Positions 24,149-32,931 of a stretch of 64,000 bases of DNA are shown here, piece by piece (within the stretch, counting starts at the first letter, position 1; every line of letters starts with the position of its first letter). Made by a program: the position numbers and the translations under genes. Source of the DNA: Candidatus Altiarchaeales archaeon (lineage in GTDB: Archaea > Altiarchaeota > Altiarchaeia > IMC4 > SCGC-AAA252-I15); the NCBI GenBank assembly GCA_014727915.1, contig WJMO01000005.1, positions 1 through 64,000 on the forward strand, read 5' to 3'. The notes under the pieces are model-generated. The model had not been told where the DNA came from, made no database searches, and worked only from the letters and a program-made list of their open reading frames with translations.

Positions 24149-24919
24149 ATGGATTCCGTCACCTTCCTGGGGACTGGGGGCGGCCGCTTTGTGCTGCTGA
24201 CTCAGAGGCGTTTCTCGGGGGGTTTGTGGCTGGAATTGGATGGTGTTCGCTTCATATTGGACCCTGGTCCCGGGGCGCTTGTCCGGGCGTTGCAGTTCGG
24301 CAAGGACCCTGGCCGCCTGGATTGTGTGCTGGCATCCCACAAGCACTTGGACCACTACAATGACGTGGAGGTCATGGTCGAGGCCATGACCCATGGCCTG
24401 AACCGGAGGAAAGGCTTGCTTGCCGTTCACGAGGGTGTTGTCGAGTATATTTCAGATTATCACTGGAATTCTGTGGAGACCATAGTGGTATCGGAGGGCG
24501 GCTCATTTGAAGTCGGGGATGTTCATGTGGATGCCATTCCGACGGTGAACCATGTGGGTGGTGTGGGCTTCAGGTTCGCATGCTCACGGGGCGTTGTAAC
24601 TTATTCAGGTGATACTGGCTACGACAAAAGGGTGGTTAGGCACTACGGGGGTTCGAGGGTTCTGGTGCTTAACACCATATTTGCGTCCGGAACCAGGTCT
24701 CCTACGCATTTGAACACGGATGATGCCGTGGAGATAGCATCCCAGGCCAAACCTGAACTTTTGATAATCAACCACTTCGGGGTGCGGATGCTCAGGGAAG
24801 GCCCTGAAAAGGAGGCGGAGAGGATAACGGAAGAGGCAGGTGTCAGGGTGGTTGCTTCGGCAGATGGCATGACAGTCGACCTGGAGGATTTGAGTATAAT
24901 GGGGCAGGGTGGTATTTAG
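24149..24919 (+). CDS. MBL-fold metallo-hydrolase
   Basis: FLGTGGGR, DPGPG, SHKHLDH, YSGDT, HFG. Confidence 0.9.
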   Translation: MDSVTFLGTGGGRFVLLTQRRFSGGLWLELDGVRFILDPGPGALVRALQFGKDPGRLDCVLASHKHLDHYNDVEVMVEAMTHGLNRRKGLLAVHEGVVEYISDYHWNSVETIVVSEGGSFEVGDVHVDAIPTVNHVGGVGFRFACSRGVVTYSGDTGYDKRVVRHYGGSRVLVLNTIFASGTRSPTHLNTDDAVEIASQAKPELLIINHFGVRMLREGPEKEAERITEEAGVRVVASADGMTVDLEDLSIMGQGGI

Positions 24920-26814
24920 TGGCCTTAAAGGTGTCGAACTTGGCGGGCTGGCTGAAGAGCAGAGAGGACCGCCTCATATACTATTATCTTCTGGCTCTCA
25001 CCATTTTGTTGCTTTTTGGTGTTCGGGGCATGCCATGGGTCAACGACGAACTAGCCTACCTGCTCTCAGTGGACTCCCTGTCCAAGACCGGCTCCCCACT
25101 CGTGGACAATGGCATATCCGATTTTAACGCGCCAGAGCTCGTATTGCATGGCACATTGGTTGTTGACGCCAACGGTAGGCGCATGCTGATGCCCTACCCC
25201 TCCATATTCTATCCCTACTTGGCCTTGCCGTTCTATCTATTGTTCAGCATACCTGGGCTGGTGCTGTTGAACCTGATGTCTTTCATTGCCTCCACATTCC
25301 TCGTCTACCATTTGAGCCTCAGGTTTTTCAACGCTTATGATGTCTCCTTGACTTCCGCAATAGTATATTCAGTACTCACCTACTCAGTGAAGTACTCTCT
25401 CGACATATGGCCTCATAGCCTGTCAGTCCTGGCGGTCCTGCTGTCATCCGCCCTTTTAATCCGGAATGGGGGCGGATCCGTGTTCGCAGCAGGCATGATA
25501 TCCGGTTTGGCAGTGGGGCTGAGATATCCTAATATCATATTCACCCTGGTCCTGGCAGCGTATCTCATACTGTCAAACAGGCCCCGACAGCTTCTTCTCT
25601 TCTCTGCGGGTGCAGCCATCCCACTCTCTATTTTACTGTGGGTCAACAACAGCCTTTATGGCACACCATTAAGGACGGGCTATATAGACTTTGCGGACAC
25701 GGAATACATATGCCAGCTTATGTTCATCCCGTTGGCGATACCTGTGGCCATACTATCTGCACTGGTGGTGAAGCGATACGTGGATGTTCCACTCCTCTAT
25801 CGCAGGCATGGTGGTGATATGAGACGGCTGCTGTTCGCTCTTCTGGTCTTGTCTCTTGTCCTGTTTGGAAACAGAATCATCTACTATCTGGGATTCTTCT
25901 TCTCGCTTGTTGTGGATTTTTCATTCAACCCCTACTATGATGAGTTTATATTCACAAGGGCGATACTCCAGTCTTCTCCCATACTAGTGCTGTCCTTTAT
26001 AGGGATTCACTTGATGATACGTGAGCGGACTAGAAGAGAATCCCTAATATTGCTCGTTTCGATACCTGCTGTGGAGATATTATTCTGTTGCGTTTTAGGG
26101 GTGTTTGGAAGCATGTCCCTTATGCGATACCTGCTGGAGTCGATACCCTACCTCTCGATTCTCTCGGCGTACGCTCTTCACCGGCTCCGTGCATACGTTC
26201 TTTCATGCCCGCAGATTTTCGCCCTTCTCTATGCGCCAGTAATACCCCTCATCATCGAGGCGGTCAACTTTGCAGCCTCCAAAAATCTCATATACTACAC
26301 ATATAAGGTGCCTATGTTACTGTCATTGTCGACTTTGATTGTCTACTATTATGGCATGGGAATCAAGAAGGTTATACTGCCCTATCTTCTCGTCTCCATA
26401 ATAGCCTATTCATTGGTTCTCAACATCACCTTCTTGTCATATAACGTCCTCCACAGGGAATACCTGCTGTCGGAGGCCCATGAGATATCAGAGATTATTC
26501 CTGATGGTTCTCTGGTCCTGCACTCTCGTTACGTGGGCCAGATGATCTATATACCTGCCAAAGTCCATAGGAACCTGGACATAGCCTTCTTGGAGCTGGG
26601 GAACAGGACATCGAACAAGGAGCTTGTGGATCACTACCTCGACAATGGCATTCAAGTTTATGTTGTACCCCCCCATAACAAGTCCGCAAGCTTCATTTAT
26701 GGCATGGTGAAACCCAATGAGGAGCCATATGTGCGGTGGATCCTCTCAGAGTACGAGATCAAAGAGGAAATAACCTTGATAAATGACCGATACCTATTCA
26801 GGATCGGCCGGTGA
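24919..26814 (+). CDS. GT-C fold membrane glycosyltransferase-like protein
   Basis: NDE motif after first TM, many TMs, RYP and MRYLL motifs; GTG start. Confidence 0.7.
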   Translation: MALKVSNLAGWLKSREDRLIYYYLLALTILLLFGVRGMPWVNDELAYLLSVDSLSKTGSPLVDNGISDFNAPELVLHGTLVVDANGRRMLMPYPSIFYPYLALPFYLLFSIPGLVLLNLMSFIASTFLVYHLSLRFFNAYDVSLTSAIVYSVLTYSVKYSLDIWPHSLSVLAVLLSSALLIRNGGGSVFAAGMISGLAVGLRYPNIIFTLVLAAYLILSNRPRQLLLFSAGAAIPLSILLWVNNSLYGTPLRTGYIDFADTEYICQLMFIPLAIPVAILSALVVKRYVDVPLLYRRHGGDMRRLLFALLVLSLVLFGNRIIYYLGFFFSLVVDFSFNPYYDEFIFTRAILQSSPILVLSFIGIHLMIRERTRRESLILLVSIPAVEILFCCVLGVFGSMSLMRYLLESIPYLSILSAYALHRLRAYVLSCPQIFALLYAPVIPLIIEAVNFAASKNLIYYTYKVPMLLSLSTLIVYYYGMGIKKVILPYLLVSIIAYSLVLNITFLSYNVLHREYLLSEAHEISEIIPDGSLVLHSRYVGQMIYIPAKVHRNLDIAFLELGNRTSNKELVDHYLDNGIQVYVVPPHNKSASFIYGMVKPNEEPYVRWILSEYEIKEEITLINDRYLFRIGR

Positions 26815-27694
26815 GTCTGTCCCTGGCTGACACCATGTTCTCCAGCTTCTTGTAAGCTACCTGTGGGTCGAGGTTTCTGAGGCCGCAGTCGGGGCTGAAG
26901 AACAGCCTGCTGGCGTCCATATGCTCCAGGGCCACGTTCATCCTCTCCTCTATCTCCTCGACGGTCTCTGCCCTGTTCAGGTCGCTCCTCACAACGCCAA
27001 CCCCGAGCTTCTGCTTGAACTTCACATCCTTCACGGTCTCCCAGAGTTGTGGGTTGGCTGCGAACTCATGCTCCAAAACCTCGACTTTGAAACCTGCGAG
27101 CTCCTTGAAAATCTCGCTGACGTCTCCGCAGACGTGCAGCATCCTCGGTTTTTTCACCCCTTTGAGAACGGTCTCGGTCAGCTTCCTCCCGTATTCTGGG
27201 TAGTCTACGGAGTAGAACGGCTCGTCAACCTGCACGTAGTCTACTATCCCGTCCAGCTCCTCAGCCTCCTTTGCCAGCCCACGGGCGTAGGAGAAGGCGA
27301 GGTCTTCTATGCTGTCATAGTAGCGGTTCACAGAGGACTTGGCCATCGTATACGGTCCTGTGATGATGCCCTTGACCTCCACACCCTCTGGAACAAGCTC
27401 CCTGACCTTCCTCTGGTCGTCGATTGTTGAAAGCCGAGAGTATTCTATCTCCTTGAGCACGGTTGGCCTGGTCTGTATGACGACGCCACTGAAGTTCCGC
27501 GCGAAGATGTTTATGAAATCCCCGCGTGTCTGCCCGTCGGAGATGATGTCCAAACCTGCGGCAACCTGCTCTTCAACGGCCTTGGACAGCGACTCCCCCA
27601 CTGCATCGGCTTTCGCGCCCTCATGGTAGGCTTTGGCGTATTTGACGCCGTCCAAGCGGATAGGATAGCTTCCGATGACGGTAGTGGGTATCAT
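26798..27694 (-). CDS. Core (single-barrel) methionine synthase, MetE C-terminal/MesA-like
   Basis: TTVIGSYP, SDGQ.R, KGIITGP.T, QVDEP, Zn ligands LHVCG and SPDCGL; only 298 aa. Confidence 0.9.
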   Translation of the reverse strand: MIPTTVIGSYPIRLDGVKYAKAYHEGAKADAVGESLSKAVEEQVAAGLDIISDGQTRGDFINIFARNFSGVVIQTRPTVLKEIEYSRLSTIDDQRKVRELVPEGVEVKGIITGPYTMAKSSVNRYYDSIEDLAFSYARGLAKEAEELDGIVDYVQVDEPFYSVDYPEYGRKLTETVLKGVKKPRMLHVCGDVSEIFKELAGFKVEVLEHEFAANPQLWETVKDVKFKQKLGVGVVRSDLNRAETVEEIEERMNVALEHMDASRLFFSPDCGLRNLDPQVAYKKLENMVSARDRLTGRS

Positions 27695-28626
27695 TCTAGC
27701 TTGAAGTATGGGTGGCTGTCTGAGACCTTTACCCCGAAGTAGTCTGCTGAGCCCTCGGCCACCAGCTTGTCTGCGAATGCGATGGATGGGAAGATACGGC
27801 CGTATGAGCTGATGGGCCCGTAGACGATGAAGTCCCCTGACATCAACGGGACCATGCTGTTGGCTGCCGCGTCGGCGCAGTCATAGGCTTCCTGGTGTTC
27901 CCTCCTGTGCTCTTTCATCCAACTCCAGCTCTCCAGGGTGTTGTGTATGGAGCATCCAACTGGCAGTCCGAACTGGTTCTTGAACACCGGTATGGCCCTG
28001 AGGGTCTCGGCGCTCATGCTACCGAAGGGTGTCGCGCCCGTGTCCAACAGGATGCCTTCCACTCCCGCGTCCCGGGCGAGGTCCAAAAGCCCAGTGTCTT
28101 TGACGCATACCATGCCCGCTCCTGAAGAGAGGATATCAGCTCGTCCGTCAACGCTCATGTCACGTGGGTTGTATCCCAGGACTATCGCTGCTGCGGGGGT
28201 GTGCTTCTCCAACGCCTTAATTTCGTCTTCTGTCACCCCCAGGTTTATGCTGTTGTATACTGTCCTGTCCAAAGCGCCTGCCTTGGCCAGCCACCCCAAT
28301 GCCGCAGCCCTTGTCTCCGCGTCGCTGCTGTCTATGCTGAAGGGCAGGTCCGTGGAGTCGAGCACGAGATTAAGCTCTTTTTCTATGTCCTTAGCGTCCT
28401 TGATGTAAACGTCTATCAAACCCGCTATGCCCGTCTCCCTGCTCAAACTCTCCTGGCCGACCACGTACTCCTTGGCTTTGGTCAGTGTTTTATCGTCGAG
28501 GGTCTTGAACTCCCTCCCATAGAATAATGTGCCGAACAAAACGGTCGGGTTCTCCCCAGGCTGACCCCCGAACCGGACCCCTCCCAACTCTACCACAGCC
28601 TGTTCTCTCATGAACGAGTGCATCAT
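27691..28626 (-). CDS. mtrH: Methyl-tetrahydropterin:corrinoid methyltransferase MtrH-like
   Basis: FGGQPGENPTVLFGTLFY, IDSS, YNSIN, GLPVGCSIHN, DFIVYGPI. Confidence 0.9.
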   Translation of the reverse strand: MMHSFMREQAVVELGGVRFGGQPGENPTVLFGTLFYGREFKTLDDKTLTKAKEYVVGQESLSRETGIAGLIDVYIKDAKDIEKELNLVLDSTDLPFSIDSSDAETRAAALGWLAKAGALDRTVYNSINLGVTEDEIKALEKHTPAAAIVLGYNPRDMSVDGRADILSSGAGMVCVKDTGLLDLARDAGVEGILLDTGATPFGSMSAETLRAIPVFKNQFGLPVGCSIHNTLESWSWMKEHRREHQEAYDCADAAANSMVPLMSGDFIVYGPISSYGRIFPSIAFADKLVAEGSADYFGVKVSDSHPYFKLE

Positions 28627-29204
28627 CCGGCCTCCGGCGCCGGCGATACGACGCCATACAGGTCAACATCCACCTTGGAGTGCAGGGCGTACTCGCTGTG
28701 GAAGACCTCCAAGACCCTGTCACTGGACACGGGCTCCAGCATCATAGCCTCGTCTAAGGGCCCAGGGCTCCTGCCGGTGCAGTCCTCAACAGCGTCCAAT
28801 ATGGCTTTCAACTCGCTGACCCCTATCAAGTCCACCACCTCGACCTGCTCCCTGAACCTCTTCAAACCATCGGCTGGGAGGTTCTCGATGAAGGGTATAG
28901 CGCTCTTCGCGCCTATCACCCTGTGATTGGAGTCCACGCCGTTACGGTGCAGGCAAATCAGGGCTTCCCCGCTCCTATGACCCCTGACTTCCGTCCCGCA
29001 CACTATTAGGAATCGTATGTTTCGGTTGGATATGACGTTGGCCACCACCTTCTCCACCCCGAGGTTCTCGGTCTTCATGCTACCGTACAATGCAACCTTG
29101 TCCAGGGGCAGGCTGAATTCCTCGCTTAGAGTGACGACAGCCACACAGGACATCCTGTCCCCTTCTGTGAACCGCCCACCCCACGGGTAAAGTCCATGGC
29201 ACAT
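28623..29204 (-). CDS. mtrA: Soluble MtrA-like corrinoid protein
   Basis: VAVVTL, KTENLGVEKVVANVISN.NIRFL, EVRGH (cobalt-ligating His), AIPFIENL; no C-terminal TM. Confidence 0.9.
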   Translation of the reverse strand: MCHGLYPWGGRFTEGDRMSCVAVVTLSEEFSLPLDKVALYGSMKTENLGVEKVVANVISNRNIRFLIVCGTEVRGHRSGEALICLHRNGVDSNHRVIGAKSAIPFIENLPADGLKRFREQVEVVDLIGVSELKAILDAVEDCTGRSPGPLDEAMMLEPVSSDRVLEVFHSEYALHSKVDVDLYGVVSPAPEAG

Positions 29205-29219
29205 GGTTGAATATTTAAC

Positions 29220-29624
29220 CTATCGTCTTATTAAACCGGCGTCCTCAAGGCTGACGGCTACTATCAATACGAGGCCGGTCACCGGCAGTAGCACCTCCTC
29301 CGTGTGGATGTAGATCATAACCAGGAACAATGCCGCAACCACCCTGTCACCCAGATAGTCAGCCCGCTCTCCCAACTCCGTCTCTGTTCCAGTGACCCTT
29401 GCCAGCGCCCCATCCATGAAATCCAACGTGAAGTATGTGAGTATCAGAACAGCGCTTAACGCCGGATTCCGGAACATCAGAAGAACGCCTGCGACCCCGC
29501 AGGGTATGGATGCTGCCGTGAGATGCAATGGCTTGACTCCCGTACTCCCGAGCAACCGCATCAGGGGTGCCAGCCACCTGTCGAGGAGGCTCAACTTGAA
29601 TCTCCTAAGCAGTCTGTACGGCAT
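29220..29624 (-). CDS. CDP-alcohol phosphatidyltransferase family protein (short)
   Basis: DFMDGALARVTGTETELGERADYLGD signature. Confidence 0.85.
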   Translation of the reverse strand: MPYRLLRRFKLSLLDRWLAPLMRLLGSTGVKPLHLTAASIPCGVAGVLLMFRNPALSAVLILTYFTLDFMDGALARVTGTETELGERADYLGDRVVAALFLVMIYIHTEEVLLPVTGLVLIVAVSLEDAGLIRR

Positions 29625-29651
29625 ATTATATAATATCTGGCAATAACTAAT

Positions 29652-30110
29652 ATGTTGGAATTCCTAAAACTCATAGTAAAAGACTATGGCCTGTTCGGGT
29701 TGTTGGTATCATCTTTCATGGGCTCGACCATATTCCTCCCCTTCTCGGTGGAGCTGACATTCCCCTTTCTCGTGAAGGCTGGGATGCCCCGCCTGGCAAT
29801 AATGTTCTTCGCAGCCTTGGGATCTCTCGGCGGAACGCTACTGAACTACTCGATAGGCAATAAGGGCATGAACTACGTCCTCAAATACACCAAACTGGAC
29901 GACGTCAACAGGGCCAAGAACCTGATGGACAGGTACGGTTGGGCGGGGTTGTTCATAGTGTTGGCCTTTCCCGTGCCGTTCCCCGTCGACCCTCTAACGC
30001 TTTTTTGCGGCGCAGCCAAGATGGAACCGAAGAGGTTCACAACCGTTGTTTTCACGGCAAAGCTGCTGAAATACGCCCTCACCTTGGGCGTGATCTCCAT
30101 AATCCTCTGA
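29652..30110 (+). CDS. YqaA/DedA (VTT domain) membrane protein
   Basis: LPFSVE, GSLGG..NY.IG, RYG, DP motifs. Confidence 0.85.
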   Translation: MLEFLKLIVKDYGLFGLLVSSFMGSTIFLPFSVELTFPFLVKAGMPRLAIMFFAALGSLGGTLLNYSIGNKGMNYVLKYTKLDDVNRAKNLMDRYGWAGLFIVLAFPVPFPVDPLTLFCGAAKMEPKRFTTVVFTAKLLKYALTLGVISIIL

Positions 30111-30150: not shown

Positions 30151-31917
30151 ATGCCTGTTGACCTGCCTGGCATAGACATCAAAGAGTATGGGGAGTTCAA
30201 GGCCATGGAGACCATGGGGAACGCCCTGGACCTGGTGGTCTCCAAGAAGATCGACACGAACCAGGCCTATAACCTAATATCCGTTGACTTGGACGAGCTG
30301 GCATGCATAACACGGGTCAGCCCTCAGAAGCTGCTGCAGGTACTCCTTAGGGAAGAGAAATACAATGCGCTGTTCGAGGGTATGCGGTCCCTCCTAAACC
30401 AGTCCTATGCGGGGGAGGTCGAACCCGATGTCCTTGAATCGCTCGTCCGCTCCACCTTCATACTCGACCGCCTGAAGGCATTGGCTAAGGAGTCTGGGAA
30501 ACCCCATAGGACTCTCTCTTTCCTAGCCTCTAAATTCAACGTGGAAGAGGAGGCTATAGCTCTCGTATCCCCCGGCACGGAATTCGTGGCTGAGGTGATG
30601 GACCGGCCGGAGAAGATAATAGAGGCTCTGAGGTTAACCCACAAGACATTTGGCATGGAATCCTCGGACATATACTCGGTTGCGATGGTGGCCACCACAG
30701 GCATGCTGGTCGGCGTCAGGGACTTTGAGGGCAGGCTCGCCGGAGTGGGAGAGTTCATATGCGACCGGAACGACAAATTCAACGTCTACAGGCTCTGTGT
30801 TTCCAAGGGCTTTGAGGGTCACCGGATATCAGAGACCATATTCAGGAAGGCGGTTGAACTCCACCCTGGCCGGACATTCTGGCTGACAGCCAGCGTTGAC
30901 GCCTCAGAACAGCTTATGATGTACTACGACAATGGATTCAAGATAGCCCGTCTTTTGAAGGACTACCTAGGTAGGGGAGTCCATCAGCTATACCTTGAAC
31001 GGAAGCCCGGGCAGGAAATTCTCATGGGCGGCCTGGAAGTAGAGGCTTCATTCAACCCTGACAGGGGCTCATACCTGATGGATGCGTCAGCCGACTTGGA
31101 CTTCGAGGACGTGCTGAATAACCACGGGTTCACCTTGGTGCAGTGGGATGTGGTCGGGGAGAGGATGTGGGTTCTTGAACGCGGTGACCTCCCGGCAACG
31201 GAGTCCAGGCGCATAAAGCTCCCGAAACCTTTTGGGAACCTGCACTTCGCCATTGCCGAATCCCCTTTGGACCTTGAAGCAACCTGCCTGGCGGAGAGGG
31301 AGATGTGGGGTGCGAAAGCCCTCAAAGAGAATGCAGTCTACCATATAGGCCACAGTGGCATGATACTCCTTGCAAAGGACGGGAACGGGGATATCGCAGC
31401 CGACTCCCCACTGGTCTTCGACGTAGAGGGCGGGATATACAGCCATGGCATCGGCGTTAAAGACGGCCTTGACAAGATCGAGGTTACAGACGCGGTGATG
31501 GCGTGCATAGAGGATATCGCCCGCCAGCTCGGCAAAACCACCGTGTGGACCACGGCGGAGACCGACAACCTACAGTGCGTCCTGGTAACCCTAAACAGGA
31601 GGGGATACTCTGGGAGGAAGATATACCTGAAATACTATGGCGTCGGCGAGAACAGGATGGTCATATCCAAAGACCTCGCAGGAGAACCGGCGGAAGAGCC
31701 AGAATGGATAGGTTCGCCGCTCATACGAGAGTACCGGGAATTCAAAGATAAACAGAGCCTCCTTGACACCTTCATGGTCAGCTCCCAGGACTACACACTT
31801 ATCGCTAAGATTCTCGAATCTGGCTACAGGGTATCCTATGCTGTAACGCCAGAAAAATATCTCGAGCACTATGGTTCCACAGTGAACCACCCATTATGCG
31901 TCCTGGTCCGGGACTAG
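30151..31917 (+). CDS. Tandem GNAT-domain protein
   Basis: Two homologous RimI-like units (LCVSKGFEGHRI...YYDNGF...KDYLG; HGIGV...RRGY...KYYG). Confidence 0.7.
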   Translation: MPVDLPGIDIKEYGEFKAMETMGNALDLVVSKKIDTNQAYNLISVDLDELACITRVSPQKLLQVLLREEKYNALFEGMRSLLNQSYAGEVEPDVLESLVRSTFILDRLKALAKESGKPHRTLSFLASKFNVEEEAIALVSPGTEFVAEVMDRPEKIIEALRLTHKTFGMESSDIYSVAMVATTGMLVGVRDFEGRLAGVGEFICDRNDKFNVYRLCVSKGFEGHRISETIFRKAVELHPGRTFWLTASVDASEQLMMYYDNGFKIARLLKDYLGRGVHQLYLERKPGQEILMGGLEVEASFNPDRGSYLMDASADLDFEDVLNNHGFTLVQWDVVGERMWVLERGDLPATESRRIKLPKPFGNLHFAIAESPLDLEATCLAEREMWGAKALKENAVYHIGHSGMILLAKDGNGDIAADSPLVFDVEGGIYSHGIGVKDGLDKIEVTDAVMACIEDIARQLGKTTVWTTAETDNLQCVLVTLNRRGYSGRKIYLKYYGVGENRMVISKDLAGEPAEEPEWIGSPLIREYREFKDKQSLLDTFMVSSQDYTLIAKILESGYRVSYAVTPEKYLEHYGSTVNHPLCVLVRD

Positions 31918-32833: not shown

Positions 32834-32857
32834 AGGGTGTTGGTGAATGGGCTCAAG

Positions 32858-32931
32858 CGGACCCGCTGGGATTCGAACCCAGGTCCGGGGATCCGAAGTC
32901 CCCAAGGATATCCAGACTACCCTACGGGCCC
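32858..32931 (-). tRNA. tRNA-Arg(TCG)
   Basis: Reverse complement GGGCCCGTAGGGTAGTCTGGATATCCTTGGGGACTTCGGATCCCCGGACCTGGGTTCGAATCCCAGCGGGTCCG folds to a cloverleaf; anticodon loop CT-TCG-GA; no intron; CCA not encoded. Confidence 0.95.

What the first reader, a model, noticed from the sequence alone, without database searches (positions are those of the whole stretch)
26798..29204. mtrA-like/mtrH/core-MetE operon: a probable soluble three-part corrinoid methionine synthase
Seen: three genes coupled by ATGA overlaps (28623-28626, 27691-27694). MtrA keeps the cobalt-ligand His (EVRGH) but has no membrane anchor; no mtrBCDEFG nearby; MetE is single-barrel with Zn ligands and lacks the folate-binding N-terminal barrel. 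Known: MtrH moves methyl from methyl-H4MPT to the MtrA corrinoid, and core methionine synthases such as methanogen MesA use methyl-corrinoids rather than folate. Inference: methyl-pterin -> MtrH -> MtrA-cobamide -> Mes -> homocysteine, a MetH analogue built from methanogenesis parts and uncoupled from Na+ pumping. This gives a biosynthetic explanation for orphan mtrAH genes.
Basis: partly seen in the sequence, partly recalled or inferred. Interest (0 to 1): 0.78.

Follow-up and report, generated by a model that had tools for sequence, protein, structure and literature searches.

The report
Soluble corrinoid methionine synthase operon
Three overlapping genes in a non-methanogenic archaeon probably pass a methyl group from a methyl-pterin through a soluble vitamin-B12 protein to homocysteine, which would explain why many archaea that make no methane keep two "methanogenesis" genes.

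Summary
Three minus-strand genes, joined by ATGA overlaps, encode a soluble MtrA homologue, an MtrH and a single-barrel MetE-type methionine synthase ("Mes").

The MtrA homologue keeps the cobalt-ligand histidine. Mes keeps all zinc and homocysteine ligands. The genome is probably an Altiarchaeota member and is 90.6% complete. No McrA, MtrB-G, CdhD, MetH, MesC-type or second MetE-type gene was found in it. It does have MTHFR, FolD and SAH hydrolase.

The gene order mtrA-mtrH-mes recurs in 62 of 80 related public loci from Altiarchaeota and Thermoplasmatota. It also recurs in 38 of 48 MtrA-bearing genomes in an even sample of 251 Thermoplasmatota. The cluster never co-occurred with MetH or with full or split MetE. 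MTHFR often sits upstream and a small DUF4346 protein downstream.

Best reading (about 0.7): methyl-pterin (probably folate) → MtrH → MtrA-cobamide → Mes → methionine, a MetH analogue built from other parts.

Two limits apply. Price and Arkin already predicted a MesA–MtrA link and noted that the genes are adjacent "in a few genomes". A second kind of orphan MtrA/MtrH in sister genera has no Mes.

All evidence is comparative; nothing biochemical was shown.

The parts
28623..29204 (-). Soluble MtrA-like corrinoid protein (193 aa). The cobalamin domain spans about residues 10-155. A C-terminal tail of about 35 residues carries the conserved motif A-L-H-S-x-V-x-V-D-L-Y-G.
   Evidence: PF04208 E 4.8e-53. 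5LAA E 2.6e-44. No TM helix. AF2 model: core pLDDT above 90, tail 46-65. Tail motif found by regex in 62 of 69 MtrA ORFs of related loci; at least four of those matches lie outside the tail.
28977..28979 (-). Codon of His76, the predicted lower axial cobalt ligand (EVRGH).
   Evidence: Aligns with His84 of 5LAA. Invariant in 23 of 23 sequences of alignment A1, as is E46, the equivalent of Glu54. Ligand roles taken from PMC4915002.
27691..28626 (-). MtrH-type methyl-pterin:corrinoid methyltransferase (311 aa).
   Evidence: PF02007 E 1.2e-72 and a weak PF00809 pterin-binding hit. TIGR01114 259.8 bits (cut-off 271.4). MtgA model 156 bits.
26798..27694 (-). Core (single-barrel) MetE-type methionine synthase, MesA-like (298 aa).
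   Evidence: PF01717 E 1.5e-37 over residues 2-290. NF002119 249.7 bits, cut-off 258. Groups with MesA-type proteins in the tree.
26885..27136 (-). Stretch holding the zinc ligands H187 (27134-27136), C189 (27128-27130), E210 (27065-27067) and C270 (26885-26887). The homocysteine-binding S9, Q55 and D157 lie upstream of it in the same gene.
   Evidence: In the 44-sequence alignment A2, S9, D157, C189, E210 and C270 are invariant, and Q55 and H187 are at least 90% conserved. Residue roles taken from PMC7857596.
28623..28626 (-). ATGA overlap: mtrA stop and mtrH start.
27691..27694 (-). ATGA overlap: mtrH stop and mes start.
29220..29624 (-). Upstream short CDP-alcohol phosphatidyltransferase-like gene (134 aa), 15 nt from mtrA. 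It may be co-transcribed. It is syntenic only within Altiarchaeota relatives and is context rather than part of the pathway.
   Evidence: PF01066 E 1.3e-11. Present upstream in L011-L015, L017, L018 and L024-L026, L028; absent in the Thermoplasmatota loci.

Best explanation
The three genes encode a cytoplasmic, three-protein, cobamide-dependent methionine synthase.

1. MtrH takes the methyl group of an N5-methyl-pterin. The pterin is made by the genome's MTHFR and is most likely a methyl-tetrahydrofolate-type carrier. MtrH puts the methyl on Co(I) of the cobamide held, His76-on, by the soluble MtrA homologue.
2. Methyl-Co(III)-MtrA then docks on the single-barrel Mes.
3. A zinc-activated homocysteine thiolate in Mes takes the methyl, giving methionine and regenerating Co(I).

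The system does the job of MetH with non-MetH parts, and it is uncoupled from the membrane Na+ pump of methanogens.

A small DUF4346 protein encoded elsewhere in this genome is probably a fourth, accessory component.

What is shown: gene content, ligand conservation, operon conservation and the exclusive distribution. What is inferred: every chemical step, the identity of the pterin and the physical contacts.
For: **Anatomy**
- Three translationally coupled genes.
- MtrA keeps His76 (= His84) and E46 (= Glu54) and has no TM helix.
- Mes keeps the zinc ligands H187, C189, E210, C270 and the homocysteine-binding S9, Q55, D157. Gln at the Glu484 position is the MesA/MesC signature described in PMC7857596.

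**Conservation**
- Of the 80 best genome-contig loci, 59 have a tight and 3 a loose mtrA-mtrH-mes arrangement. Twelve are cut off by the locus end. Six have room but lack Mes, and two of those six are methanogen/ANME-type.
- In 251 evenly drawn Thermoplasmatota genomes (at least 80% complete), 48 have MtrA. In 38 of these a PF01717 gene starts downstream on the same strand: 995-1085 nt in 37 genomes and 3426 nt in one.

**Pathway neighbours**
- An MTHFR gene lies directly upstream of mtrA in 17 of the 74 loci clustered.
- A small PF14251 (DUF4346) gene lies directly after mes in 49 of 74.
- DUF4346 is fused to the C-terminus of an MtrA domain in 3 of 3 long homologues.

**Exclusive distribution**
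- Among 41 relatives, the 10 genomes with this cluster have no other PF01717 gene. The 11 genomes with full or split MetE have neither MtrA nor MtrH.
- In the Thermoplasmatota sample, MetH (13 of 251) overlaps none of the 48 MtrA-bearing genomes and none of the 83 PF01717-bearing genomes.

**Own genome**
- Exactly one MtrA, one MtrH and one PF01717 gene.
- No match to McrA, MtrE, CdhD, Met_synt_B12 or a MesC-type model.
- All six B12-binding domains belong to radical SAM proteins.
- MTHFR, FolD and SAH hydrolase are present, so methyl-pterin and homocysteine are both available.

**Family placement**
- The best NCBIfam model is NF002119, which scores 364.7 bits on the Methanospirillum hungatei MesA-type protein.
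- In the tree, cluster-linked Mes sits with MesA-type proteins in a clade with SH-aLRT 99, apart from MetE and split MetE.
Against: - There is no biochemical or expression evidence of any kind.
- The window's Mes misses the NF002119 cut-off (249.7 against 258). It is only 30% identical to the M. hungatei protein and 37% to the Hydrothermarchaeota MesA-type protein. That is below the roughly 40% that Price et al. used to define MesA.
- CobS (PF02654) was not found, so the source of cobamide is not shown. The genome is 90.6% complete, so each 'not found' is provisional.
- No reductive-reactivation component was recognised.
- Not all soluble MtrA/MtrH come with Mes. Sister genera (G009, G011, G015, G017, G019, G022) carry another MtrA/MtrH type, with DUF4346 next to mtrH where located, and no clear PF01717 gene (G022: one weak match, E 5.7e-4). 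L060, L064 and L071 have MtrA alone, and L062 has MtrA-MtrH without Mes within 5 kb.
- In this genome MTHFR and DUF4346 are unlinked.
- MesB, MesC and MesD reference sequences were not in the tree.
Confidence: 0.72

Rival explanations
1. The cluster is a catabolic or energy-metabolism methyltransferase: a soluble methyl-tetrahydrofolate:coenzyme M (or other thiol) methyltransferase, as Speth and Orphan proposed for mtrAH of the Lake Pavin Methanomassiliicoccales. The Mes-like protein would act as the MtaA-like thiol methylase.
For: PMC6147122 (passages read) proposes this for an mtrAH pair with the same 'unusual C-terminal extension' on MtrA. Mes gives weak hits to the MtaA, methylcobamide:CoM methyltransferase and URO-D models. 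Some loci with the cluster are labelled Methanomassiliicoccales (L070, L096).
Against: No McrA was found in this genome. Most cluster-bearing records carry Thermoplasmata/Thermoplasmatota labels that name no methanogenic order, and the SG8-5 lineage (L029) is described as non-methanogenic. [quoted passage not shown] Its MetE/MesA-type scores are far higher than its MtaA-type scores (249.7 against 32-37 bits). The cluster is mutually exclusive with MetE and MetH. PMC6147122 never mentions the adjacent metE-like gene (0 occurrences of 'methionine' or 'metE').
Confidence: 0.06
2. MtrA and MtrH mainly run the other way. They funnel methyl groups from an unidentified methylated substrate, via MtrA, into the pterin pool, as suggested for orphan MtrAH in general. 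Mes merely taps methyl-MtrA as a side branch.
For: PMC9635834 reports the hypothesis that orphan MtrAH feed methyl groups into the Wood-Ljungdahl pathway. A second MtrA/MtrH type without Mes exists in sister genera, so MtrAH can have a role without Mes.
Against: No substrate-specific MT1 methyltransferase is conserved in the 74 clustered neighbourhoods. The conserved neighbours are MTHFR, which supplies methyl-pterin, and DUF4346. No CdhD was found here, and SG8-5 is reported to lack the Wood-Ljungdahl pathway. The tight 1:1:1 coupling and the exclusivity with other methionine synthases point to Mes as the purpose of the cluster.
Confidence: 0.12
3. Mes works alone or with another donor, and its adjacency to mtrAH is inherited synteny without a functional link.
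For: Characterised core synthases use free methylcobalamin in vitro (PMC7005905, PMC7857596). The complex prediction gave no verdict, so no contact has been shown.
Against: The gene order holds between proteins only 35-50% identical and across two phyla, with start/stop overlaps. The KM for free methylcobalamin is reported as far above physiological levels (PMC7005905). No CoFeSP and no non-radical-SAM B12-binding (PF02310) protein was found in the genome.
Confidence: 0.05

Closest known systems
MesA, the core methionine synthase of methanogens (methylcobalamin:homocysteine methyltransferase; Price et al. 2021 PMC7857596; Price and Arkin 2024 PMC11378808)
   Same: Single MetE-type barrel of about 300 aa. 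Same zinc ligands, and the same Ser/Gln/Asp homocysteine site. Best-scoring NCBIfam model (NF002119). Same clade in the tree. MtrA was already predicted as its methyl donor, and the two genes were noted as adjacent 'in a few genomes'.
   Different: A sister group rather than a clear member: 30-37% identity and 250-279 bits against 362-365 for MesA-type proteins. It occurs in organisms without Mcr or membrane Mtr, whereas MesA was described as restricted to methanogens. It has its own dedicated soluble MtrA and MtrH in one operon.
MetH, the cobalamin-dependent methionine synthase
   Same: Same overall chemistry and module logic: pterin-binding barrel, then corrinoid carrier, then zinc and homocysteine barrel. 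MtrH is distantly related to the MetH pterin-binding domain (weak PF00809 hit).
   Different: Three separate proteins. The corrinoid carrier has the MtrA fold and binds cobalamin in a different mode (PMC4915002). The homocysteine module is MetE-type. No SAM-dependent reactivation domain was found (PF02965 absent).
MtrA-H, the Na+-translocating methyl-H4MPT:CoM methyltransferase of methanogens
   Same: MtrA and MtrH are homologous (about 52-54% and 32-35% identity to the subunits in L098 and L101). The first half-reaction is presumed to be the same.
   Different: No MtrB-G, no membrane anchor and no CoM/Mcr context. The methyl acceptor is homocysteine through Mes. The pterin is probably a folate.
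Cytoplasmic MtrA homologues and the MtxXAH genes of methanogens (PMC4915002, PMC12978539)
   Same: Soluble MtrA-like and MtrH-like pairs of unknown function.
   Different: Those occur in methanogens and, in the passages read, are not reported next to a methionine synthase. No MtxA or MtxH reference sequences were available to compare.
CoP-MtrH-metE cluster of 'Ca. Methanomethylicus' and the mesB-acsCD operon (PMC7886697, PMC7857596)
   Same: A core MetE homologue placed beside a corrinoid protein and/or a pterin methyltransferase. An anabolic role was suggested.
   Different: The corrinoid protein there is of the MtbC/MttC type or is CoFeSP, not MtrA.

Membership tests
MesA (Price et al. 2021) | Single catalytic MetE barrel without the N-terminal folate-binding domain, and no split-MetE partner gene | tested here: met
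   PF01717 covers residues 2-290 of 298 aa. There is only one PF01717 match in the genome, although the same model does detect the N-terminal halves of split MetE in relatives.
MesA (Price et al. 2021) | Zinc ligands His-x-Cys, Glu, Cys, and a homocysteine site of Ser, Gln (in place of Glu484) and Asp | tested here: met
   H187, C189, E210, C270 and S9, Q55, D157 are invariant or at least 90% conserved in 44 sequences. Roles taken from PMC7857596.
MesA (Price et al. 2021) | About 40% identity or more to the characterised Methanothermobacter enzyme; equivalog score | tested here: not met
   The characterised sequence was not at hand. By proxy: 30% identity to the M. hungatei protein and 37% to the Hydrothermarchaeota protein, which score 364.7 and 361.5 bits on NF002119. 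The window's Mes scores 249.7 against a cut-off of 258.
MesA (Price et al. 2021) | Found only in methanogens | tested here: not met
   No McrA or MtrE was found in a 90.6%-complete genome.
MesA (Price et al. 2021) | Methylcobamide:homocysteine methyltransferase activity | not testable with these tools
   Needs an enzyme assay.
MtrA (PF04208) | MtrA fold with the cobalt-ligand His84 and its hydrogen-bond partner Glu54 | tested here: met
   179.8 bits against a cut-off of 25. 5LAA E 2.6e-44, with H76 and E46 aligned to those residues.
MtrA as a subunit of the MtrA-H complex (TIGR01111) | C-terminal transmembrane anchor and an MtrB-G context | tested here: not met
   165.2 bits against a cut-off of 249.15. 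No TM helix, and no MtrB-G hits in the genome.
MtrH (PF02007 / TIGR01114) | MtrH pterin-binding barrel | tested here: met
   PF02007 scores 245 bits against a cut-off of 22.8. The equivalog TIGR01114 is narrowly missed (259.8 against 271.4), so substrate identity with methanogen MtrH is not implied.
MetH | B12-binding domain PF02310/PF02607, reactivation domain PF02965 | tested here: not met
   No PF02965 match. All six PF02310 hits are radical SAM proteins. The system is an analogue of MetH, not a member.
Split MetE | Adjacent gene for the N-terminal MetE-like half | tested here: not met
   The neighbours are mtrH and a convergent membrane-protein gene. Split pairs do occur in relatives that lack the cluster.

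The most novel reading that the evidence does not exclude
The cluster is one face of a four-part, self-contained cytoplasmic methionine synthase: MTHFR-fed MtrH, tail-bearing soluble MtrA, MesA-like Mes, and the uncharacterised DUF4346 protein acting as a cap, docking or reactivation factor. On this reading it is the sole methionine synthase of roughly a sixth of Thermoplasmatota and of many Altiarchaeota. The 'orphan mtrAH' of the Lake Pavin Methanomassiliicoccales and of SG8-5 would then be biosynthetic, not catabolic. The methanogens' Na+-pumping Mtr and this biosynthetic module would share a soluble MtrAH ancestor.
Probability: 0.3. Interest if true: 0.78.

Novelty: new variant of a known kind. 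Interest (0 to 1): 0.62.

Why it matters
Orphan mtrA/mtrH genes in non-methanogens have been read as remnants of methanogenesis, or as parts of speculative methylotrophic or aceticlastic pathways. Recent papers call their role unknown or unclear.

A conserved operon that ties them to a methionine synthase gives a simple biosynthetic explanation for one large class of them. It would change metabolic reconstructions of Thermoplasmatota and Altiarchaeota genomes.

It also supplies the missing genomic link for the published prediction that MesA-type enzymes take methyl groups from MtrA. It offers a soluble, three- or four-protein system in which that prediction can be tested directly in vitro or in E. 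coli, without a membrane complex.

Finally, it points to DUF4346 as a partner of MtrA/MtrH modules. DUF4346 has a confident predicted fold, no solved relative was found for it, and no paper in the library searched mentions it.

Tried and rejected
- **Complex prediction.** MtrA (alignment A1) with Mes (alignment A2) scored 0.00 against a mark of 0.32. The verdict was 'no answer' and the controls were not run. This is not evidence either way.
- **Expression.** The look-up of sequencing runs on window 26700-29700 listed no run: none was listed and no RNA holder was listed.
- **Fused forms.** A search for long proteins containing Mes found none, which is weak evidence. The same search with MtrA found only MtrA-DUF4346 fusions.
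- **DUF4346 function.** The AF2 model (pLDDT 90) had no PDB match at E ≤ 0.001. The ESM Atlas gave only other DUF4346 clusters at 0.81. No paper holds 'DUF4346'.
- **Context of methanogen MesA.** In L106 the neighbours are an aspartyl-tRNA synthetase-like gene and an HTH protein, which is uninformative.
- **Promoter/terminator scan.** Matches were at chance level, and the scan targets bacterial signals.
- **Split MetH or another corrinoid protein.** Considered and rejected: all six B12-binding hits are radical SAM enzymes.
- **Split MetE.** Considered and rejected: no partner gene.
- **Methionine demethylation (reverse direction).** Considered and rejected on thermodynamic grounds. This rests on established knowledge and was not tested.
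- **Not done.** MesB, MesC and MesD reference sequences could not be obtained from the tools, so the tree holds only MesA-type, split MetE and MetE. No MtrA or MtrH tree was built. The search of protein representatives and a metagenome scan were not used. Supplementary files of papers were not opened. The supplementary figures of PMC7886697, PMC9635834 and the preprint 10.1101/2020.03.09.984617 may show neighbourhoods or MtrH trees that bear on novelty.

The novelty claim rests on searches, and on passages read.

Full report
**What is there**

On the minus strand of the window lie three ORFs: 28623-29204 (193 aa), 27691-28626 (311 aa) and 26798-27694 (298 aa). The sequence shows that each stop codon overlaps the next start in an ATGA, at 28623-28626 and 27691-27694.

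Pfam assigns them to MtrA (PF04208, E 4.8e-53), MtrH (PF02007, E 1.2e-72) and the catalytic domain of cobalamin-independent methionine synthase (PF01717, E 1.5e-37, residues 2-290).

A short CDP-alcohol phosphatidyltransferase-like gene ends 15 nt upstream of mtrA. A convergent gene for a 631-aa membrane protein overlaps the 3' end of mes, so the unit ends there.

**The three proteins**

*The MtrA homologue.* It aligns with the solved MtrA 5LAA at E 2.6e-44. His76 (EVRGH) falls on His84 and Glu46 on Glu54. These are the cobalt ligand and its hydrogen-bond partner according to PMC4915002 (passages read). Both are invariant in 23 homologues.

It has no transmembrane helix: the best 19-residue hydropathy window scores 1.36, against 2.6-2.7 for canonical MtrA. 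In place of the anchor it carries a tail of about 35 residues with a conserved motif (A-L-H-S-x-Φ-x-Φ-D-x-Y/W-G, His175 invariant). A regex found this motif in 62 of 69 MtrA ORFs of related loci; at least four of those matches lie outside the tail, and a variant form (FHKDLL-DP-L) is missed.

In an AlphaFold model the core is confident and the tail is not (pLDDT 46-65). That fits a docking peptide, but this is inference. Speth and Orphan had noted an 'unusual C-terminal extension' on such an MtrA (PMC6147122).

*Mes.* It is a single barrel. In an alignment of 44 sequences S9, D157, C189, E210 and C270 are invariant, and Q55 and H187 are at least 90% conserved. These are the zinc and homocysteine ligands listed in PMC7857596. 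They include the Gln at the Glu484 position that the paper gives as typical of MesA and MesC.

**The genome**

The window is contig C12:1-64000 of a 1.81-Mb assembly in 13 contigs, 90.6% complete. The closest homologues carry 'Candidatus Altiarchaeota' labels.

| Feature | Result |
|---|---|
| MtrA, MtrH, PF01717 | exactly one match each |
| McrA | no match |
| MtrE | no match |
| CdhD | no match |
| MetH reactivation domain | no match |
| Mch | no match |
| MesC-type model NF004712 | only a weak 18.8-bit match, to mes itself; the model does ring in Methanosarcina acetivorans |
| ORFs of two canonical mtr operons | hit the genome only at this mtrA and mtrH |
| B12-binding domains | six, all in radical SAM proteins |
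| MTHFR | present |
| FolD | present |
| SAH hydrolase | present |
| CobS | not found |

So homocysteine is produced and a methyl-pterin can be made, probably on a folate-type carrier. No other known methionine synthase was detected. Each absence is provisional at this level of completeness.

**Conservation**

A pattern scan of one genome per species returned 578 relatives of MtrA, of which the best 80 loci were kept. They break down as follows:

- 59 have mtrA-mtrH-mes tightly collinear.
- 3 have them loosely collinear.
- 12 are cut off by the end of the locus before the question can be answered. Four of these are methanogen-type or other canonical-type mtr loci.
- 3 have MtrA alone with room to spare (L060, L064, L071).
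- 3 have MtrA and MtrH but no Mes (L062, the Methanophagales locus L101, and L103).

The records are labelled Altiarchaeota, Proteinoplasmatales SG8-5, Thermoplasmata or Thermoplasmatales, Methanomassiliicoccales, and halophilic Thermoplasmatota. Proteins in these clusters are often only 35-50% identical to those of the window.

A denominator-based check used 251 Thermoplasmatota genomes, drawn evenly, each at least 80% complete:

- 48 have MtrA.
- In 38 of these a PF01717 match begins downstream on the same strand: 995-1085 nt in 37 genomes and 3426 nt in one. This is the size of mtrH.
- 4 have both genes, but on different contigs.
- 6 carry a different, longer MtrA type without a strong PF01717 match.

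**Extra components**

I clustered the ORFs of 74 loci. A small PF14251 (PterinBD-DUF4346) gene lies directly after mes in 49 of them. An MTHFR gene lies directly before mtrA in 17. In the window's genome both exist but are unlinked (C12:265709-266026 and C12:120525-121373).

DUF4346 is also encoded next to mtrH in six genomes of sister genera that carry a second MtrA/MtrH type. It is fused to the C-terminus of an MtrA domain in all three long MtrA homologues found. Its model is confident (pLDDT 90) but matches no solved fold at E ≤ 0.001. No paper in the library mentions it.

MTHFR next to the cluster is the strongest single hint about the direction of methyl flow.

**Distribution against other methionine synthases**

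Among 41 relatives of the window's genome:

- The 10 genomes with the cluster (G000-G004, G010, G012, G013, G018, G020) have only this core Mes.
- The 11 genomes with full-length or split MetE (G005-G007, G014, G024, G025, G033, G034, G036-G038) have neither MtrA nor MtrH.
- G016 lacks all three genes.

In the Thermoplasmatota sample, MetH occurs in 13 of 251 genomes. None of these is among the 48 MtrA-bearing genomes or the 83 PF01717-bearing genomes. Related genomes are not independent, so this is a pattern and not a statistic. Still, it is what non-orthologous replacement of one essential enzyme looks like.

MTHFR is present in 39 of the 41 relatives.

**Which Mes family**

| Protein | NF002119 score (cut-off 258) |
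|---|---|
| Window's Mes | 249.7 |
| Four other cluster-linked Mes | 251.7-278.8 |
| Methanospirillum hungatei protein | 364.7 |
| Hydrothermarchaeota protein | 361.5 |

Identity of the window's Mes to the last two proteins is 30% and 37%.

A quick maximum-likelihood tree of 50 rows puts the 28 cluster-linked Mes together (SH-aLRT 87). They sit inside a clade (SH-aLRT 99) with the two MesA-type proteins and one long-branched Hydrothermarchaeota paralogue. Split-MetE catalytic halves and MetE C-terminal domains fall outside it.

The tree used only half of the Thermoplasmatota rows of A2 and has no MesB, MesC or MesD. The best PDB relative by sequence is 3RPD, a MesD, at E 6.1e-21. I therefore call the protein MesA-like, a sister group, and not MesA.

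**Mechanism and rivals**

The best-supported reading is: methylene-pterin → (MTHFR) → methyl-pterin → (MtrH) → CH3-Co(III)-MtrA → (Mes, zinc-thiolate) → methionine. I give it about 0.72.

- *Soluble methyl-folate:CoM methyltransferase* (PMC6147122). This fits poorly: no Mcr was found here, the homocysteine site is conserved, and the cluster is exclusive with MetE and MetH.
- *MtrAH mainly imports methyl groups from another substrate*. This cannot be excluded, because a second Mes-less MtrA/MtrH type exists. However, no substrate methyltransferase is conserved nearby.
- *Pure synteny*. This is unlikely given the evolutionary depth of the conservation.

**Open points**

- the source of cobamide (no CobS found);
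- the reactivation of oxidised cobalt;
- the roles of DUF4346 and the MtrA tail;
- the identity of the pterin.

**What is known already**

- PMC7857596 (abstract and sections read) defined MesA, stated that it occurs only in methanogens, and predicted MtrA as its donor.
- PMC11378808 (one passage read) adds that genomes with MesA homologues nearly always have MtrA, and that 'in a few genomes' the genes lie close together on the same strand.
- PMC7886697 (passages) noted a corrinoid-protein/MtrH pair beside a metE homologue in 'Ca. Methanomethylicus' and raised an anabolic role.
- The preprint 10.1101/2020.03.09.984617 calls the SG8-5 mtrAH of unknown function.
- PMC9635834 calls the role of orphan MtrAH unclear.
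- PMC6147122 interprets such genes catabolically and does not mention methionine.

In seven searches I found no description of a soluble mtrA-mtrH-mes operon in non-methanogens, of its MTHFR and DUF4346 neighbours, or of its exclusivity with MetE and MetH. Supplements were closed, and subscription journals are not in the library.

**Verdict**

It is a new variant of a known kind. It extends a published prediction to a dedicated soluble system in non-methanogens, and it gives a testable biosynthetic role to a large class of orphan mtrAH genes, though not to all of them.

Noticed in passing
G000:C12:265709-266026 (outside the window; L144:3207-3527, minus strand); also directly after mes in 49 of 74 related loci: A small stand-alone PF14251 (PterinBD-DUF4346) protein of about 106 aa travels with MtrH/MtrA modules. 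It is fused to the C-terminus of an MtrA domain in three 370-386 aa proteins (P0121-P0123). The AF2 model is confident (pLDDT 90: three strands, two helices). There was no PDB fold match at E ≤ 0.001, and no paper in the library searched mentions it.
   Followed up: partly
window 28623-28730 (C-terminal tail of the MtrA homologue): A conserved C-terminal motif (A-L-H-S-x-Φ-x-Φ-D-x-Y/W-G, His175 invariant in alignment A1) replaces the membrane anchor of canonical MtrA. It is duplicated in a subgroup that lacks adjacent mtrH and mes (P0059, P0118, L060, L071). It has low pLDDT in the isolated model. Its function is unknown.
   Followed up: partly
L146 (G019:C45), L147 and L148 (G011), sister genera of the window's genome: A second kind of orphan MtrA/MtrH. 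MtrH is followed by a small DUF4346 gene (an IS200-type transposase gene lies between them in G019). MtrA is encoded alone elsewhere. No PF01717 gene was found in these two genomes. How these genomes make methionine was not examined.
   Followed up: partly
Mes tree: The Altiarchaeota cluster-linked Mes nest inside the Thermoplasmatota ones, next to L041 and L070. This hints that the cluster moved between the two phyla. It was not tested with a species tree or an AU test.
   Followed up: no
window 24919-26814 (+) and 30151-31917 (+): A 631-aa multi-pass membrane protein converges on mes. It has only a weak hit to the LA_3751/LA_3752 putative glycosyltransferase family (57.5 bits, cut-off 200). 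Nearby is a 588-aa ORF with no Pfam or NCBIfam match.
   Followed up: no
window 32857-32931 (-): tRNA-Arg (anticodon TCG), the only RNA gene that ARAGORN and Rfam found in the window.
   Followed up: yes
G000, six loci (L004-L009): Six B12-binding radical SAM genes occur in a 1.8-Mb genome in which CobS was not found. This suggests dependence on imported cobamide.
   Followed up: partly
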